From Parcubacteria group bacterium ADurb.Bin159 (GTDB taxonomy: Bacteria; Patescibacteriota; Patescibacteriia; UBA2591; MWDC01), in assembly GCA_002070355.1 (NCBI GenBank), contig MWDC01000002.1, forward strand, positions 8,814-72,813: a stretch of DNA of 64,000 bases. Direction: 5' to 3'. The stretch's first letter is position 1. The number at the start of each line of letters is the position of its first letter. Made by a program: the position numbers and the translations under genes. Under the pieces are notes generated by a model. The model was not told the origin of the DNA and searched no databases. It saw nothing but the letters and a program-made list of their open reading frames with translations. This document shows positions 35,459 to 40,476 of this stretch, piece by piece.

Positions 35459-36037
35459 ATGTCTACTTTTATTAAAGTTCCTGTTGAGATTTCGGCAAGA
35501 CATATTCATTTGTCAAAAAAAGATTTAGATAACCTTTTCGGCAGAGGATATAAATTAAAAAAATTACGGTCTCTTTCTCAACCAGGGATGTTTGCTGCTG
35601 AAGAAACAGTAGTTATTTGTAATAAGCAAAATTGTTTAAAAAATGTCAGAATTTTGGGACCAATTCGCCCTCAAACACAAATAGAAATTTCTCAAACAGA
35701 CGCTCGAGCGCTTGGACTAAAACCGCCCCTTAGAATTTCTGAAGATATTAGAGGTAGCGCTGGCTGTCAAATAAAAGGGCCCAAAGGAACTATTGATTTA
35801 AAAGAAGGCGTTATTATTGCTTGGCGACATCTTCATTGCCCGTTATCTTTTGCCAAAAAATATAATTTAGAAAAAAGAAAATTTGTTTCTATTAAAATAA
35901 ATAATCAGCGGTCATTGACTTTTCATAAAGTATGGTTGAGAATTAGCCCAAATTATAGATTGGCTTTTCATTTAGATACTGACGAGGGTAATGCCGCGGG
36001 AATAAAAAAAATAGCCAGAGGCTATTTAATACTATAA
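35459..36037 (+). CDS. pduL: phosphate propanoyl/acetyl-transferase PduL
   Basis: The duplicated PduL signature: ISARHIHLSKKDLDNLFG..QPGMFAAEE..RILGPIR and GVIIAWRHLHC..LDTDEGNAAGI. Confidence 0.8.
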   Translation: MSTFIKVPVEISARHIHLSKKDLDNLFGRGYKLKKLRSLSQPGMFAAEETVVICNKQNCLKNVRILGPIRPQTQIEISQTDARALGLKPPLRISEDIRGSAGCQIKGPKGTIDLKEGVIIAWRHLHCPLSFAKKYNLEKRKFVSIKINNQRSLTFHKVWLRISPNYRLAFHLDTDEGNAAGIKKIARGYLIL

Positions 36038-36058
36038 AATAATCATTTTAATTTAAAC

Positions 36059-36086
36059 AATCCCGGTTTTTGAGCGGGATTTTTTA
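36059..36086 (+). terminator. intrinsic terminator aatcccg-gtttttgag-cgggatt + T5
   Basis: A 7-bp stem 22 nt after the pduL stop. Confidence 0.6.
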
Positions 36087-36244
36087 TTTGGTCGCAATTA
36101 CTGAACGAGGGAATTTAATTTTTACTTTACAAATTTTAGAATTGGAAAGACCGACTGTTTTGGCTTTAAATATGGCTAACTTACTCAAGGGCGAAAGCGA
36201 GGGCGGGGCAGGAATTCCTTTCCCCCAATTCCTTTTCCTTATTT

Positions 36245-37336
36245 TTACTCTACGGCTATACGACGTACATAAACGTAAATTGAAGAAAGGTAATAATCAT
36301 AAGGGGTAACTTTTAAAGTATACTCTCCCGCCTGGTTAGGAGTAAAATAAAGTTTTCTCGTAATTGAAGTAACTTTTCCATCAAAATTACGAGGCCTTGT
36401 AAAAGGTTCTTCTTTGCTAATATAAATTATTGTTTTTTTATCAGGATTTTTTAATTCTATTTCTACTGAGAATTTTGGATCCGGCAATTCTATTTGAGGC
36501 ATAACTTGAACTTCTAAAATCATTTTTTCATTTATTGCCTCTGTTAAAGAAAATTTGACCGTGGTTGGCGTCCCAGGCACTATACAAGAGGGATCCAAAG
36601 TTCCCTTTTCCCCCACCGAAGTATTTATTAATAAAACTGATGTACAGGGAAATTTATTTTGCCAGACAATTGGATATTTCTTTTCTTCTTTGGTCCCCAG
36701 AAAAATACCGGCAGCTAAAGCTCCAATTGTCAGTAAAATCCCACAAATAATAATAATTGTTTTTTCTTTTTTAGAAGCGTGTTTATATACCTTTTTTGTT
36801 TCTTTAAAAGATTTTTCTTCTTTCGCTGTTTTTTTCTTATTAATTTCCAAAGCAAAACCAACATTAAATTTGGTTAAAATTAATAAAATTGCTGATTTGA
36901 GTTGTATTAAAAGCATTAAGATAATATCAACGAAACCAGCCCAAAAAATAAAATCAATAACTTTTCCTTGAATAGTGAAACCAACAAAATTATTAATTAC
37001 TTCCGGAAATACCCATACAAAATTAGGGTCTACTCCCAAATTAAAAGAATTAAAAAATTGATAAGCATGAGTATAATAAAAATAAGCGATAAAAGAAAAA
37101 ATACCTATTTGAAGCCAAGGTGGAGAAAAAAGTGATAACAACTCGGCTGTCGTACCAACCACAAGGAAAATACCCAAAAGTATCTCAAACAAATACTGCC
37201 CTTGGTTAAAATTCAATTTGCTTTGAATAATAATAAGAACAAAAATCCCTATCCCTACAAAACAAAATAGCCATAAAAGCAAAGAAATAATTTTTGAAAA
37301 AATATTCCAAATAATTTTTCCAAAGGAAACGTTCAT
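36245..37336 (-). CDS. polytopic membrane protein (about 6 N-terminal TM helices) with a C-terminal ~150-aa extracytoplasmic domain; paralog of the next gene
   Basis: Its C-terminal domain shares VE(I/V)ELKNPDKKTIIY(I/L)(S/E)KEE, W(Q/R)..FP.T, and AG(E/D)YTLK(V/I)TPY with the protein at 37346-37897. Confidence 0.6.
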   Translation of the reverse strand: MNVSFGKIIWNIFSKIISLLLWLFCFVGIGIFVLIIIQSKLNFNQGQYLFEILLGIFLVVGTTAELLSLFSPPWLQIGIFSFIAYFYYTHAYQFFNSFNLGVDPNFVWVFPEVINNFVGFTIQGKVIDFIFWAGFVDIILMLLIQLKSAILLILTKFNVGFALEINKKKTAKEEKSFKETKKVYKHASKKEKTIIIICGILLTIGALAAGIFLGTKEEKKYPIVWQNKFPCTSVLLINTSVGEKGTLDPSCIVPGTPTTVKFSLTEAINEKMILEVQVMPQIELPDPKFSVEIELKNPDKKTIIYISKEEPFTRPRNFDGKVTSITRKLYFTPNQAGEYTLKVTPYDYYLSSIYVYVRRIAVE

Positions 37337-37345
37337 ATTTTTATT

Positions 37346-37897
37346 TTACGTTGCTTCACGAATTGTTACATCAATATATTCAATGCCGTAGCTATAAGGA
37401 GTAATTTTTAAGGTGTAATCTCCTGCTTTTTCAATAGTAAAATTAAATTCTTTAAAAGAATTAGAGTTTTTATTTGGAGAATTAGGAATAGATCCTTTTA
37501 AAATTTCTTCTTTTTCTAAGTAAATAATTGTTTTTTTGTCAGGATTTTTTAATTCTACTTCAACAGAGGCCTCTGGCGAATTTTTCCCTTCTTGAATAAG
37601 AGGTTGCATAGCAACCATTAAATATAAAATTAATTTTTCATTTTCTTTCTCTAATGGAATAAGAGCTGTTTTTGTTTCTCCTGGTTTAATCGAGGAAGGA
37701 AGTAAATTGTCTTTTTTACCACAATCTTCTTTATAACAAATAGCTGTTCCAGGAAATCTGCCTCGCCAAATAGCAGGATGTTTTATCTCTTGTTGATCCG
37801 CAAACCAAACAATGGTAAAAATTACTCCTACAGCAAGCGCCATAGTAAAAAACATTATAAAAAGAGGATTTTGAAATATGTTTCGTTTTTTGGGCAT
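37346..37897 (-). CDS. single-TM membrane protein with the same extracytoplasmic domain (paralog)
   Basis: 183 aa; an N-terminal TM helix followed by the shared domain. It lies 9 nt upstream of its paralog and is co-oriented with tRNA-Pro. Confidence 0.6.
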   Translation of the reverse strand: MPKKRNIFQNPLFIMFFTMALAVGVIFTIVWFADQQEIKHPAIWRGRFPGTAICYKEDCGKKDNLLPSSIKPGETKTALIPLEKENEKLILYLMVAMQPLIQEGKNSPEASVEVELKNPDKKTIIYLEKEEILKGSIPNSPNKNSNSFKEFNFTIEKAGDYTLKITPYSYGIEYIDVTIREAT

Positions 37898-38078
37898 TTT
37901 TTTTAATTTCTATAGTTTTAAAACCAAAAGATTCAATTCGCATTACTAAACGAAGTACGAACCTTTTTTGAGTAAAGTCCTGAATGATTGCCGTGCTTTG
38001 CGGGCAGACACCAAAACGGAACGCTCGGGCGGGGCGAGTGAGTGAACAAATTCCTCACAAAATTCGTAATGTTTAGAT

Positions 38079-38153
38079 TGGTCGGGGTAGCCGGACTTGA
38101 ACCGGCGACCTCATCGTCCCGAACGATGCGCGCTACCACTGCGCTATACCCCG
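38079..38153 (-). tRNA. tRNA-Pro (anticodon CGG), with CCA encoded
   Basis: The reverse complement reads CGGGGTA-TA-GCGC-AGTGGTA-GCGC-G-CATCG-TTCGGGA-CGATG-AGGTC-GCCGG-TTCAAGT-CCGGC-TACCCCG-A-CCA. This is a canonical cloverleaf with a 7-bp acceptor stem and TTCGGGA anticodon loop. Two ORF-track entries (37933-38190 and 38097-38462) overlap it and are spurious. Confidence 0.9.
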
Positions 38154-38162
38154 CTTGCTTTA

Positions 38163-38190
38163 ATTGTAAAAGATTATGGTAAAAAGTCAA
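38163..38190 (-). promoter_or_regulatory. promoter TTGACT-N16-TACAAT for tRNA-Pro (minus strand); the -10 box ends 9 nt before the mature 5' end
   Basis: The reverse complement of agtcaa (38185-38190) and attgta (38163-38168). Confidence 0.5.
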
Positions 38191-38280
38191 AATATGCCAA
38201 ATACTCCTTCTGCTGGTTTGTCATGGAAATTTTGGATTTTAATATCTTGTTTTCGTTTTATAAATTGCTAAAATATTATT

Positions 38281-40476
38281 ATGAGCCAAAAAACACAAAA
38301 TATATTATTAGAGATAATTTATTTTGGCAGCGCCCTGATTTTGTTTTTGCCTCTTTTGGTCTTAAAAACCACTATATATCCTTTTATTTTTCCCAAGGTT
38401 ATTTTTTTTCAAATTATTGTAGAAATTATTTTTGCTGTTTGGCTGGGATTGGCTATTTATGAGCCAAAATTTCGCCCAAATTGGAAAAACCCAGTGCTTA
38501 TAAGTTTAATTGTTTTTGTAAGTTTTTTAATTCTTTCGGGTATTTTTGGCTTGGATATTTATCGTTCTTTTTATTCAACTCAAGAAAGAATGACAGGCAT
38601 ATTAACTTGGTTGCATCTTTTGATTTGGTTTATAATACTTTCGTCTGTTTTTACACAAGAAAAAGAAATTAAAAAATTAATTTGGATAACGCTAATTGTT
38701 TCTTTCTTGGTTGGTTTATACGGCATTGGCCAACGTTTTGGTCTGTCATTTTTGATAAAAGATAAAAATGTGCGATTGACCTCTACTTTGGGTAATCCTA
38801 TTTTTTTGGGTGTATATAGTATGATGCACTTTTTTCTGGGCCTTTTTTTGTTTTTAAAAGAAAAGAGAAAAATTCGTTTTTTCACTTTGGCTTTATCTAT
38901 TTTTAATTTAGTAATTATGTTTTTGGCTGCTTCAAGGGGGGTGATGCTGGCTACTATAATTGGTATAATACTTATAATTGGAGTGATGATTTTTACTTTA
39001 AAAAAACGAAAATTAAGGAATATTTTAAGCATTTTATTTGTTATTTTTATTATCAGTGTTGTTTCAATTATTATTTATATTCAGGGTAAACCATTACCCC
39101 AAAAAGCGCCTTATGCTTTAACTCGTTTATCTAATTTAATGGGTTCAGCTGAAGATAGATTAATTGCTTGGGGAATTGCCAAGAATGGTTTTGAAGAAAA
39201 GCCATTTTTAGGTTGGGGTTGGGCTAATTATAACTTAATTTTTAATAAATATTATAACCCCTATTTTTTAGAAAAAGGCCTGTCAGCCACTTGGTTTGAT
39301 CATTCTCATAATCAACTTTTAGATATTTTGGCGTTAAGTGGAATTTTAGGATTTTTAGCTTATCTCTCTATTTTTTTAACCATTTTAATTATTTGGGGAA
39401 AATTTTTGAAAGAAGCGGATAAACAGGACAAATTGGCTATTTCTGTTTTATCCACTTTGAATATAGCATATTTTATTCAAAATATTTTTGTTTTTGATAC
39501 ACCAGCGCCTCTTTTTATTTTTATTTTTAATTTAGCTTTATTTTCTTTTTATAGTCAAAAACAATATTCTTCTAAAAATCTTGTTAAAGAAAATAAAAAA
39601 AATAAATTTCCTTTGCCAATTTTTATTTTTTTAATTATTTTATTTTTATCTTTTTCTCTTTGGTCTTTTAATTTTTCTCCTTTTAATCAATCTAAATTAG
39701 GCGCGCAAGCAAATCAGGCGTCAAAAGTTGATTTTAGCCAAAGTATTTATTTATTTAACAAATCTTTGGAAAAAAGCACTTTTACTGCGCCAGAAATTAG
39801 GGCTCTTTTAGCTAAAACAATAAGCGATAATAAACCACCCAAAGTTTCTACTGATACTTATAATATTGGTTTGGAATTGGCTATTTCCCAAATGGAAAAA
39901 AACGTTAAAGAACATCCTTTGGATGCCCATTATTGGCTATATTTAGGTCAACTTTACGGGCTTTCTAGCGATCAAAATAATAAAAATCTTGATTTAGCTG
40001 AAGAAGCGCTAAAAAAGGCATTTTCTCTTTCACCTAAACGGCAAGAAATATATTATGAATTAAGTAATATATATCTTTTAAAACGAGAACCAGCAAAAGC
40101 TTTAGAATGGGCGAGACAAGCTGTTATTTTAGATGGAAATGTGGGAATGAGCTGGTGGCATTTAGCCGTAGCTTATCTTGTTTCTGGAGAGAAAATAAAA
40201 GCCACAAAAGTTCTTGATAAAGCTGTTTGGCAATTTGGTTATTATAGGCCGGGATTAGATAAATATTTTGCTGATGCTTATAAAGAAGCGGAAAATTATG
40301 AGCGGGCTATTTATTTCTGCGATAAAGCCGTGGTAAATGAGCCGAAAGATTTAGAAGGTTCAATTTTTTGTTTTACTTTAGCTAAACAAAAAGGGAAAGA
40401 AGATAAAGCCAATTATTATTTTTCAAAAATTAAAGAGCAAGATGAAGAATTAGCTGAACAATTGGCCGGAATATAG
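38281..40476 (+). CDS. O-antigen ligase (Wzy_C) family membrane protein fused to C-terminal TPR repeats
   Basis: An N-terminal half of about 12 TM helices with HSHNQLLDILALSGILGFLAY (O-antigen ligase motif), and a C-terminal 250 aa of TPR-like helical repeats. It is a paralog of 59549-61822. Confidence 0.7.
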   Translation: MSQKTQNILLEIIYFGSALILFLPLLVLKTTIYPFIFPKVIFFQIIVEIIFAVWLGLAIYEPKFRPNWKNPVLISLIVFVSFLILSGIFGLDIYRSFYSTQERMTGILTWLHLLIWFIILSSVFTQEKEIKKLIWITLIVSFLVGLYGIGQRFGLSFLIKDKNVRLTSTLGNPIFLGVYSMMHFFLGLFLFLKEKRKIRFFTLALSIFNLVIMFLAASRGVMLATIIGIILIIGVMIFTLKKRKLRNILSILFVIFIISVVSIIIYIQGKPLPQKAPYALTRLSNLMGSAEDRLIAWGIAKNGFEEKPFLGWGWANYNLIFNKYYNPYFLEKGLSATWFDHSHNQLLDILALSGILGFLAYLSIFLTILIIWGKFLKEADKQDKLAISVLSTLNIAYFIQNIFVFDTPAPLFIFIFNLALFSFYSQKQYSSKNLVKENKKNKFPLPIFIFLIILFLSFSLWSFNFSPFNQSKLGAQANQASKVDFSQSIYLFNKSLEKSTFTAPEIRALLAKTISDNKPPKVSTDTYNIGLELAISQMEKNVKEHPLDAHYWLYLGQLYGLSSDQNNKNLDLAEEALKKAFSLSPKRQEIYYELSNIYLLKREPAKALEWARQAVILDGNVGMSWWHLAVAYLVSGEKIKATKVLDKAVWQFGYYRPGLDKYFADAYKEAENYERAIYFCDKAVVNEPKDLEGSIFCFTLAKQKGKEDKANYYFSKIKEQDEELAEQLAGI

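What the first reader, a model, noticed from the sequence alone, without database searches (positions are those of the whole stretch)
36245..38190. tRNA-Pro followed by two tandem paralogous membrane proteins sharing a novel extracytoplasmic domain
On the minus strand a promoter drives tRNA-Pro(CGG) (38079-38153). Two adjacent genes follow, with a shared ~150-aa C-terminal domain (VEIELKNPDKKTIIY, AGEYTLKVTPY). One has a single TM anchor. The other is fused to a 6-TM membrane domain. There are no recognisable family motifs. tRNA-adjacent, duplicated, surface-exposed proteins are candidates for host or phage interaction in an episymbiont-type organism. They could also be an integrated-island remnant. 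No integrase or att repeat was seen.
Basis: partly seen in the sequence, partly recalled or inferred. Interest (0 to 1): 0.55.

Follow-up and report, generated by a model that had tools for sequence, protein, structure and literature searches.

The report
Orphan membrane-anchored jelly-roll protein pair
Next to a proline tRNA gene, a Parcubacteria (CPR) genome carries two adjacent genes for membrane-tethered proteins that share a previously unclassified beta-sandwich domain; the family is real and very rare, but the tRNA neighbourhood is incidental and there is no sign of a genomic island.

Summary
tRNA-Pro(CGG) lies at 38079-38153(-). ORF B (37346-37897, 183 aa) and ORF A (36245-37336, 363 aa) follow on the same strand, 9 nt apart. 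They share 38% identity over 172 aa (E 1e-28).

ORF B is one signal-anchor helix plus a ~145-aa domain. ORF A has four N-terminal TM helices rather than six. These are followed by a Lys-rich helix, inferred to be cytoplasmic, an anchor helix and the same domain.

AlphaFold models are confident (pTM 0.84 for the domain alone). They show a jelly-roll beta-sandwich. The nearest structures are GOLD/p24 domains, subtilase C-terminal (PPC-like) domains and CBMs, all with TM-score below 0.5. No Pfam, NCBIfam, PHROG, PADLOC or PDB sequence match passes threshold for either domain.

The family is tiny: 33 representatives among 1.84 billion proteins. Members come from Parcubacteria (the window is bin ADurb.Bin159; one relative is a Gribaldobacteria MAG) and from Anaerolineaceae-type genomes.

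The island reading fails:
- composition is native
- there is no integrase and no repeat of the tRNA 3' end
- the locus is collinear in three strains
- no tRNA lies near the gene in the roughly ten distinct loci from other lineages

The short form does look horizontally transferred into higher-GC genomes. Function is unknown. My best guess is a membrane-proximal binding or scaffold module. Interest is modest.

The parts
38163..38190 (-). Sigma-70-like promoter match TTGACT-16-TACAAT. It ends 10 nt upstream of the tRNA. A second match, TTGGCA-16-CATAAT at 38200-38173, overlaps it.
   Evidence: Consensus scan, 10 of 12 for each. Not shown to be functional.
38079..38153 (-). tRNA-Pro, anticodon CGG
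   Evidence: ARAGORN; Rfam RF00005, 70.1 bits.
37898..38078 (-). 181-nt spacer between the tRNA and ORF B, with a G+C-rich patch (GCCCCGCCC at 38027-38035). No terminator-like site, so the tRNA and the two genes may be co-transcribed (inference).
   Evidence: No terminator-like or promoter-like site here. No Rfam family. Fold z-score -1.5, not significant.
37346..37897 (-). ORF B, 183 aa, the 'short form'. It has a cytoplasmic MPKKRN tail, one uncleaved signal-anchor helix (residues ~12-32, 37802-37864) and an extracytoplasmic jelly-roll domain (residues ~40-181, 37355-37780).
   Evidence: AF2 model of residues 34-183: pLDDT 87.9, pTM 0.84, nine strands. Homologues.
36245..37336 (-). ORF A, 363 aa, the 'long form' (GenBank OQB44441.1, hypothetical protein). 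Parts:
- orphan 4-TM module, residues 1-156 (36869-37336), with a conserved outer loop NFxWSLPxxINNxxGFSIQGKVIDFxFWSGF
- Lys/Glu-rich helix, inferred to be cytoplasmic, residues 157-188 (36773-36868)
- anchor helix, residues 189-213 (36698-36772)
- jelly-roll domain, residues ~220-360 (36257-36679)
36070..36306 (+). Unexpressed relic of a FeoB-type GTPase G-domain (…NLIFTLQILELERPTVLALNM…) in the 3' flank of ORF A. It overlaps the end of ORF A on the opposite strand.
   Evidence: Pfam FeoB_N PF02421, E=6.3e-4, residues 14-40 matching profile positions 93-119 of 156, below the gathering score. Six-frame reading.
36058..36089 (+). Hairpin AATCCCG…CGGGATT followed by a T run, reading as the intrinsic terminator of the convergent pduL gene (35459-36037). 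A further terminator-like site on the minus strand lies at 36027-36009.
   Evidence: Sequence read directly (D3). Terminator scan.

Best explanation
The locus is an ordinary chromosomal two-gene operon of a Parcubacteria (CPR) bacterium. It happens to sit downstream of tRNA-Pro(CGG).

It encodes two paralogous membrane proteins of a very rare, uncurated family. Each displays a ~145-aa jelly-roll beta-sandwich domain directly on the outer face of the cytoplasmic membrane. A single N-terminal anchor helix holds the domain in place.

The long form (ORF A) joins this anchor-plus-domain unit to an orphan four-helix membrane module through a Lys-rich helix that is inferred to be cytoplasmic. That module has a strongly conserved extracytoplasmic loop.

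Shown:
- gene structure and paralogy
- topology logic
- fold class
- rarity of the family and its taxonomic spread
- lack of island features

Inferred:
- The domain works as a non-catalytic binding or scaffold module, as GOLD, PPC and CBM-type jelly rolls do. Its target would be a cell-envelope ligand or a partner membrane protein at the membrane surface.
- The short and long forms may act together as a hetero-oligomer, since they are probably co-transcribed, perhaps together with the tRNA.

The short form has also moved horizontally into higher-G+C, non-CPR genomes, one of which is placed in the Anaerolineaceae.
For: Paralogy: 38% identity over 172 aa, E=1e-28.

Topology: an N-terminal KKR tail plus one hydrophobic helix in ORF B. 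In ORF A, five AF2 membrane helices, four of them above the hydropathy threshold, with 11 K+R in the 153-189 linker. Cys pairs are conserved in the domain with variable spacing (CxxC, Cx3C, Cx4C, Cx19C), as expected for disulfides outside the cell.

Fold: AF2 pLDDT 81 for full-length ORF A and 87.9 (pTM 0.84) for the ORF B domain. Foldseek against the PDB returns only jelly-roll sandwiches:
- Tk-SP and KP-43 subtilase C-domains
- p24/TMED GOLD domains (TM-score on target 0.60-0.65)
- PorU, CBM16/22/35, TNF-like domains
- best TM-score on query 0.47

Weak per-member Pfam hints point the same way: PPC 4e-4, EMP24/GOLD 0.046.

Conserved positions: across distant members only G, Y, P and L positions are invariant or nearly so, and none is His, Cys, Asp or Glu. 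This fits a non-catalytic module.

Rarity: 6, 9 and 12 hits among 5.8 billion clusters. 33 hits among 1.84 billion representatives. 17 loci in JGI metagenomes and none in IMG/VR.

Organism: ADurb.Bin159 Parcubacteria; a relative in a Gribaldobacteria MAG.

Not an island: GC is 0.30 against 0.31 for the window, and GC3 is 0.17-0.22, like gyrB and pgk. There is no repeat of the tRNA 3' end. Strains are collinear at 97-99% over 35498-39716.

Operon: a 9-nt gap between ORF B and ORF A here and a 4-nt gap in relative L004.

Horizontal transfer: the short form has GC3 0.29 against 0.54-0.66 for its neighbours in L001, and 0.38 against 0.42-0.56 in L002. L002 is placed in the Anaerolineaceae by 90%-identity clusters, and its copy of the gene sits on a 3.09-Mb contig.
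Against: No experiment, ligand, conserved operon partner or annotated homologue supports any specific function.

Gene neighbourhoods differ in every lineage examined.

Structural matches are generic, with TM-score on query below 0.5. 'Binding module' is therefore a class-level inference.

Hetero-oligomerisation was not tested, because no multimer prediction was available.

The tandem short-plus-long arrangement occurs only in this species and one relative (L004/L005). Most genomes have one form alone, so the two forms need not work together.

Co-transcription with the tRNA is inferred only from the absence of a recognisable terminator or promoter in the 181-nt spacer.
Confidence: 0.5

Rival explanations
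1. The pair is the remnant of a genomic island integrated at tRNA-Pro.
For: The genes lie directly downstream of a tRNA. They form one of the few minus-strand blocks in a window that is mostly plus-strand.

A FeoB-like gene relic abuts the far end.

The close relative L004 carries the same cassette between different genes, and similarity stops at the cassette ends (L004 3342-4973 against window 37894-36255, 82.6% nt).

The exact 9-mer GCCCCGCCC occurs only twice in the window, once in each flank and on the same strand.
Against: GC and GC3 are native.

There is no integrase or recombinase ORF.

No partial copy of the tRNA 3' end exists anywhere in the 64 kb, even with 3 mismatches allowed.

The two flanks are no more alike than random tiles of the genome. 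The best local score is 22; 173 of 614 control tiles score as high.

Three strains from different samples are collinear through both junctions.

No other family locus has a tRNA next to the gene.
Confidence: 0.05
2. The proteins are surface adhesins or receptors that mediate episymbiont attachment to a host cell, or phage recognition or exclusion.
For: The organism is a CPR bacterium.

The domain is extracytoplasmic and of a fold class used by adhesins, tail fibres and CBMs.

The short form is shared across phyla with an Anaerolineaceae genome and other higher-GC genomes, with low-GC codon usage in the two recipients measured (L001, L002). This could reflect physical association.

In L028 it lies next to rve-type transposase-like ORFs, judged by eye.
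Against: Only ~7-10 residues separate the anchor helix from the first strand, so the domain cannot reach through a wall or S-layer.

There are no repeats or stalk.

No relatives were found on viral contigs. There are no PHROG or PADLOC hits.

Strains show 97-99% conservation and no hypervariability.
Confidence: 0.15
3. The proteins are accessory components of metal-ion uptake, for example a membrane-tethered substitute for a solute-binding protein.
For: In L004 the pair follows ABC_tran and ABC-3 (Mn/Zn/Fe-type permease) genes after a 37-nt gap, and no binding-protein gene is visible.

A FeoB relic abuts ORF A in the window.

A Zip transporter gene lies two genes away in L006.
Against: Among the invariant or nearly invariant columns, the family-wide alignment has no His, Cys, Asp, Glu or Met, and the closer-family alignment has only two Glu.

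The associations differ in kind and are absent from most loci.

The fold is not that of known metal-binding SBPs.
Confidence: 0.07
4. The ORFs are not real genes.
For: AT-rich genomes yield long chance ORFs. No annotated homologue exists.
Against: Homologues at 37-80% identity are conserved along their full length in many independent contigs.

AF2 models are confident.

The overlapping antisense ORFs match other loci only as the shadow of the family gene, on its opposite strand.
Confidence: 0.01

Closest known systems
GOLD domain of p24/TMED cargo receptors (Pfam PF01105, e.g. PDB 5AZW, 5GU5, 7RRM)
   Same: A compact beta-sandwich displayed on the non-cytoplasmic side of a membrane by a single TM helix. 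It gives the best TM-scores on target, 0.60-0.65. Two family members give weak PF01105 hits, E 0.046.
   Different: GOLD/p24 proteins are eukaryotic, with type-I topology (C-terminal TM plus coiled coil). Here the anchor is N-terminal. The domain is ~145 aa against ~95 aa. TM-score on query is only 0.42-0.45. No sequence-level membership.
PPC / beta-jelly-roll C-terminal domains of secreted subtilases (Pfam PF04151; Tk-SP 3AFG/9UES, KP-43 1WMD)
   Same: Top or near-top Foldseek E-values (1e-5 to 1e-4) and the best TM-score on query, 0.47. One family member hits PF04151 at E=4e-4. The 'DPDG…G.YTL.V.P' strand pattern is similar (my own recollection).
   Different: Not attached to a peptidase. 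It is membrane-anchored rather than secreted. The window proteins give no PPC hit.
Carbohydrate-binding modules of the galactose-binding-domain-like jelly-roll class (CBM16, CBM22, CBM35, CBM4)
   Same: Same fold class in Foldseek. Non-catalytic binding is the function I infer.
   Different: TM-scores are 0.33-0.43. No sequence similarity. No glycoside hydrolase partner. A sugar-binding site was not assessed.
tRNA-integrated genomic islands
   Same: Position immediately 3' of a tRNA gene.
   Different: Lacks an integrase, the att duplication of the tRNA 3' end, atypical composition and strain variability.

Membership tests
PPC domain (PF04151) | Sequence match to the Pfam model above the gathering score | tested here: not met
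   No PPC hit for ORF A or ORF B at E<=10. Only 1 of 17 family members hits, at E=4e-4.
PPC domain (PF04151) | Jelly-roll fold superposable on subtilase C-terminal domains | tested here: inconclusive
   Foldseek E 1.7e-5 to 1.1e-4. TM-score on query 0.36-0.47.
PPC domain (PF04151) | Located C-terminal to a secreted peptidase | tested here: not met
   The architecture is TM anchor plus domain, or 4-TM module plus anchor plus domain. No peptidase domain.
GOLD / p24 (PF01105) | Sequence match above the gathering score | tested here: not met
   2 of 17 members hit at best E 0.046. The window proteins give no hit.
GOLD / p24 (PF01105) | GOLD beta-sandwich fold | tested here: inconclusive
   TM-score on target 0.60-0.65 but on query 0.42-0.45, rmsd 4-5.6 A.
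GOLD / p24 (PF01105) | Type-I topology: lumenal domain, coiled coil, C-terminal TM, short cytosolic tail | tested here: not met
   The anchor helix is N-terminal to the domain in both proteins.
Carbohydrate-binding module (galactose-binding-like) | Demonstrated or conserved sugar-binding site | not testable with these tools
   Only fold-class similarity is available.
tRNA-integrated genomic island | Integrase or recombinase gene | tested here: not met
   The ORFs between pduL and the Wzy_C/TPR gene are only ORF A, ORF B and spurious overlaps.
tRNA-integrated genomic island | Direct repeat of the tRNA 3' end at the distal boundary | tested here: not met
   The 22-mer and 17-mer of the tRNA 3' end, with up to 3 mismatches, match only the tRNA itself in the 64 kb.
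tRNA-integrated genomic island | Atypical base composition | tested here: not met
   GC 0.300 and 0.303 against 0.314 for the window. GC3 0.22 and 0.17 against 0.21-0.22 for gyrB, pgk and the Wzy_C/TPR gene.
tRNA-integrated genomic island | Variable presence among strains | tested here: not met
   L013, L014 and L024, from three samples, are collinear with window 35498-39716 at 97-99% nt.
Bacterial lipoprotein | Lipobox [LVI][ASTVI][GAS]C after the signal h-region | tested here: not met
   The first Cys of ORF B is in ICYKEDC, well after the anchor. Cys25 of ORF A is preceded by LF (sequences).
FeoB (for the relic at 36070-36306) | Complete G-domain and membrane domain | tested here: not met
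   Only 27 residues match FeoB_N positions 93-119 of 156, E=6.3e-4. Stops occur in the flanking frames.

The most novel reading that the evidence does not exclude
The short-form gene is shared between anaerobic-digester Parcubacteria and an Anaerolineaceae-type (and other higher-GC) genomes because these organisms are physically associated as episymbiont and host. On this reading the membrane-tethered jelly-roll proteins take part in the cell-cell interface. The gene would then be a genomic marker for an unknown CPR-Chloroflexota partnership.
Probability: 0.08. Interest if true: 0.65.

Novelty: new variant of a known kind. Interest (0 to 1): 0.3.

Why it matters
The locus defines two uncurated protein domains. 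One is a jelly-roll ectodomain. The other is a 4-TM module with a conserved outer loop.

Both occur in a handful of Parcubacteria and Chloroflexota-type genomes, at least some of them from anaerobic digester and activated-sludge samples. That makes them candidates for new Pfam entries.

The compositionally foreign short-form copies in a 3.1-Mb Anaerolineaceae-type chromosome and in another 50% G+C genome are a small but concrete case of gene flow between CPR and non-CPR bacteria. They could guide searches for hosts.

Beyond this, the locus is an ordinary pair of hypothetical membrane-protein genes. The tRNA and island aspect that drew attention does not hold.

Tried and rejected
- Searched for a direct repeat of the tRNA 3' end: none found.
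- Tested the exact 9-mer GCCCCGCCC that occurs in both flanks as an att or target duplication. Extended similarity of the two flanks is not above chance, so it was rejected.
- Looked for a structured RNA in the tRNA-ORF B spacer and in the ORF A 3' flank. Rfam gives only the tRNA, and fold z-scores are -1.5 and +0.8.
- Ran Pfam, NCBIfam, PHROGs and PADLOC on both proteins, and Pfam on each member of the C-domain and N-domain alignments. Nothing reached a curated cut-off or a convincing E-value. The NCBIfam FILTED hit (E 0.0016, residues 144-235) covers the K/E-rich linker plus TM helix, and I judged it compositional.
- Ran profile searches of both domains against PDB sequences: zero hits at E<=10.
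- Foldseek against BFVD returned only generic beta-sandwich and TM matches.
- Scanned IMG/VR: no relatives.
- Looked for conserved synteny. Flanks differ in each lineage, and only the related loci L003 and L008 share a downstream PDDEXK_1 gene.
- Tried to name the L001 organism through 90% clusters: all were singletons.
- Searched the literature for ADurb.Bin159: nothing.
Full report
**What is there**

ARAGORN finds a single tRNA in the 64-kb window, tRNA-Pro(CGG) at 38079-38153 on the minus strand. Rfam confirms it at 70 bits.

Two overlapping sigma-70-like matches lie just upstream on the minus strand, each scoring 10 of 12:
- TTGACT-16-TACAAT at 38190-38163, ending 10 nt before the tRNA
- TTGGCA-16-CATAAT at 38200-38173

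These are consensus matches only.

Two ORFs follow on the same strand after a 181-nt spacer:
- ORF B, 37346-37897, 183 aa
- ORF A, 36245-37336, 363 aa

They are 9 nt apart. BLASTP between them gives 38% identity over 172 aa, E=1e-28.

Two corrections apply. The shared region includes the membrane anchor. The N-terminal module of ORF A has four helices, not six.

**Anatomy**

ORF B has three parts:
- a basic tail, MPKKRN
- one hydrophobic helix, residues ~12-32
- a globular domain

It has no lipobox and no obvious signal-peptidase site, so it reads as an uncleaved signal anchor.

The AlphaFold model of ORF A (pLDDT 81) has:
- helices 5-38, 43-70, 73-96 and 126-156
- a Lys/Glu-rich helix, 160-183
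- a fifth membrane helix, 189-220
- a beta-sandwich, 223-359

The 153-189 linker carries 11 K+R. By the positive-inside rule the linker is cytoplasmic. That places both the sandwich and the best-conserved loop of the N-module (NFxWSLPxxINNxxGFSIQGKVIDFxFWSGF, between helices 3 and 4) outside the membrane.

Pairs of cysteines are kept in nearly all close family members, with variable spacing. This fits disulfides in an extracytoplasmic domain; it is an inference.

The sandwich begins only 7-10 residues after the anchor. It therefore sits on the membrane face rather than projecting from the cell.

**Fold and family**

No curated library recognises either domain:
- Pfam
- NCBIfam
- PHROGs
- PADLOC
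- profile searches against all PDB sequences

The domain-only model of ORF B is confident: pLDDT 87.9, pTM 0.84, nine strands.

Foldseek against the PDB returns only jelly-roll sandwiches:
- C-terminal domains of the subtilases Tk-SP and KP-43
- GOLD domains of p24/TMED proteins (TM-score on target 0.60-0.65)
- PorU
- several CBMs
- TNF-like domains

No TM-score normalised on the query exceeds 0.47. Scattered sub-threshold Pfam hits in individual members point the same way: PPC 4e-4, EMP24/GOLD 0.046, P_proprotein, Y_Y_Y, Filamin.

Across distant members only G, Y, P and L positions are invariant or nearly so. This argues for a non-catalytic module.

My reading is a new sequence family with a common binding-type fold. 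The four-helix N-module has no detectable relative outside the family.

**How rare, and in whom**

The word-indexed searches of 5.8 billion clusters returned 6, 9 and 12 proteins. An exhaustive HMMER profile search of 1.84 billion representatives found 33 at E<=1e-3. JGI metagenomes gave 17 loci and IMG/VR none. GTDB species representatives gave one full hit, in a Candidatus Gribaldobacteria MAG, and one fragment at the end of a Woesebacteria contig.

Exact-sequence look-up identifies the window as a contig of 'Parcubacteria group bacterium ADurb.Bin159'. ORF A is OQB44441.1, a hypothetical protein.

Architectures vary:
- the long form alone, in most CPR loci
- the short form alone
- the N-module alone
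- the N-module fused to a zinc ribbon or an EbsA-like segment, plus other beta domains

**Is it an island at the tRNA?**

No. The evidence:
- GC (0.30) and GC3 (0.17-0.22) equal those of gyrB, pgk and the window.
- No integrase ORF is present.
- The tRNA 3' end has no second copy in the 64 kb, even with three mismatches.
- Contigs of the same species from three samples (L013, L014, L024) are collinear with window 35498-39716 at 97-99%.
- Among the roughly ten distinct loci from other lineages, none has a tRNA next to the gene. The single tRNA found, tRNA-Leu in L002, is 7.6 kb away.

The exact 9-mer GCCCCGCCC occurs only in the two flanks. The flanks are otherwise no more alike than random genome tiles. 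They fold no better than shuffles.

The closest other lineage, L004/L005, keeps the short-then-long pair with a 4-nt gap. There it lies between an ABC-3 permease gene and argS. Nucleotide similarity to the window (82.6%) stops at the cassette ends. The pair has therefore changed neighbourhood over time, but nothing marks it as a mobile element here.

**Evolution of the pair**

A neighbour-joining tree of C-domains puts ORF B (with L004 and L001) and ORF A (with L004 and L012) in separate clades. One long form, L022, nests among short forms. The tree is approximate.

The pair is thus not a recent tandem duplication. The N-module has been gained or lost more than once.

One 69-nt stretch, encoding ELKNPDKKTIIY.SKEE, is 81% identical between the two genes. 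The same peptide is conserved family-wide, so selection is a sufficient explanation.

**Horizontal transfer (outside the original finding)**

A short form 67% identical to ORF B sits in a 25.7-kb contig of 50% G+C (L001). Its neighbours encode a DMSO-reductase-type enzyme, a HisKA_3 kinase and TatA. Its GC3 is 0.29, against 0.54-0.66 for those neighbours.

A second short form (46% identical) lies in L002. Its GC3 is 0.38, against 0.42-0.56 for neighbours. The ClpP and RelA proteins of L002 cluster at 90% or more with Anaerolineaceae MAG proteins. The gene's own cluster sits on a 3.09-Mb contig, which rules out an assembly chimera.

More distant short forms occur in 61% G+C contigs. In L028 the short form lies next to ORFs that look by eye like rve-type transposases.

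Low-GC donors of the Parcubacteria type are the simplest source for the L001 and L002 copies. The direction of transfer is an inference.

**Mechanism, with confidence**

I regard the following as well supported (about 0.85): these are real, probably co-transcribed genes for membrane-tethered extracytoplasmic jelly-roll proteins of an orphan family, unrelated to the tRNA.

The functional step is inference (about 0.3). I propose that the domain is a membrane-proximal binding or scaffold module for an envelope ligand or a partner protein. It may work as a short/long hetero-oligomer. In the long form the four-helix module would provide a second conserved outer surface.

Rivals are scored in the report sections:
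- host or phage interaction
- a metal-uptake accessory, suggested by ABC-3, FeoB-relic and Zip neighbours
- an island remnant

**Verdict**

The family is new at the sequence level but ordinary in fold and kind. The island interpretation is not supported. The cross-phylum short-form copies are the most interesting by-product. Interest 0.3.

Noticed in passing
window 36070-36306 (+): A 79-codon ORF in the ORF A 3' flank reads as a fragment of a FeoB-type GTPase G-domain (Pfam FeoB_N E=6.3e-4, profile positions 93-119). It begins inside the pduL terminator hairpin and overlaps the ORF A stop. It is probably a decayed gene relic.
   Followed up: partly
window 36201-36209 and 38027-38035 (-): The exact G+C-rich 9-mer GCCCCGCCC occurs only twice in the 31% G+C window. 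The copies are on the same strand, one in each flank of the two-gene pair. Extended flank similarity is not above chance, so this is unexplained or a coincidence.
   Followed up: yes
L001 8001-8552; L002 8001-8564: Short-form homologues (67% and 46% identical to ORF B) sit as low-GC3 genes (0.29 and 0.38) inside 50% and 47% G+C non-CPR genomes. L002 is placed in the Anaerolineaceae, with the gene on a 3.09-Mb contig. This indicates cross-phylum horizontal transfer.
   Followed up: partly
L028 1716-3199: The short-form gene (288-848) is followed by ORFs that look, by eye, like an rve-type (IS481/IS3-like) transposase and a transposase fragment. No family search was run on them.
   Followed up: no
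L002 8643-8768 (-): A 41-codon fragment with a DPPYN DNA-methyltransferase motif lies just downstream of the short-form gene. It may be another remnant of foreign DNA.
   Followed up: no
window 36402-36470 vs 37500-37568: A 69-nt stretch is 81% identical between ORF A and ORF B, although the proteins are only 38% identical overall. It encodes the family-wide motif ELKNPDKKTIIY.SKEE. Selection is likely, but gene conversion is not excluded.
   Followed up: partly
proteins P0022, P0023, P0031, P0024, P0029: The orphan 4-TM N-module also occurs alone. It also occurs fused to a zinc ribbon or an EbsA-like segment plus different C-terminal beta domains. P0024 and P0029 are longer forms (495 and 518 aa) with Ala/Arg/Pro-rich sequences; the profile matches P0024 in three stretches.
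   Followed up: partly
L017 2027-2608; L021 4561-5007; L003 7474-7908: In several CPR loci the long form is flanked by another small membrane protein with a C-terminal beta-rich domain that is not a family member. Clusters of small membrane-anchored ectodomain proteins may be a theme.
   Followed up: no
window 1-64000: Nearly all long ORFs are on the plus strand, with positive GC skew throughout. The tRNA-ORF B-ORF A block (36245-38153) is one of the few minus-strand segments, and GC skew dips to -0.05 there.
   Followed up: no
protein P0026: A 151-aa protein joins a radical-SAM-like N-terminal fragment (CxxxCxxC) to the C-terminal half of the jelly-roll domain. It is likely a frameshift or assembly chimera.
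   Followed up: no
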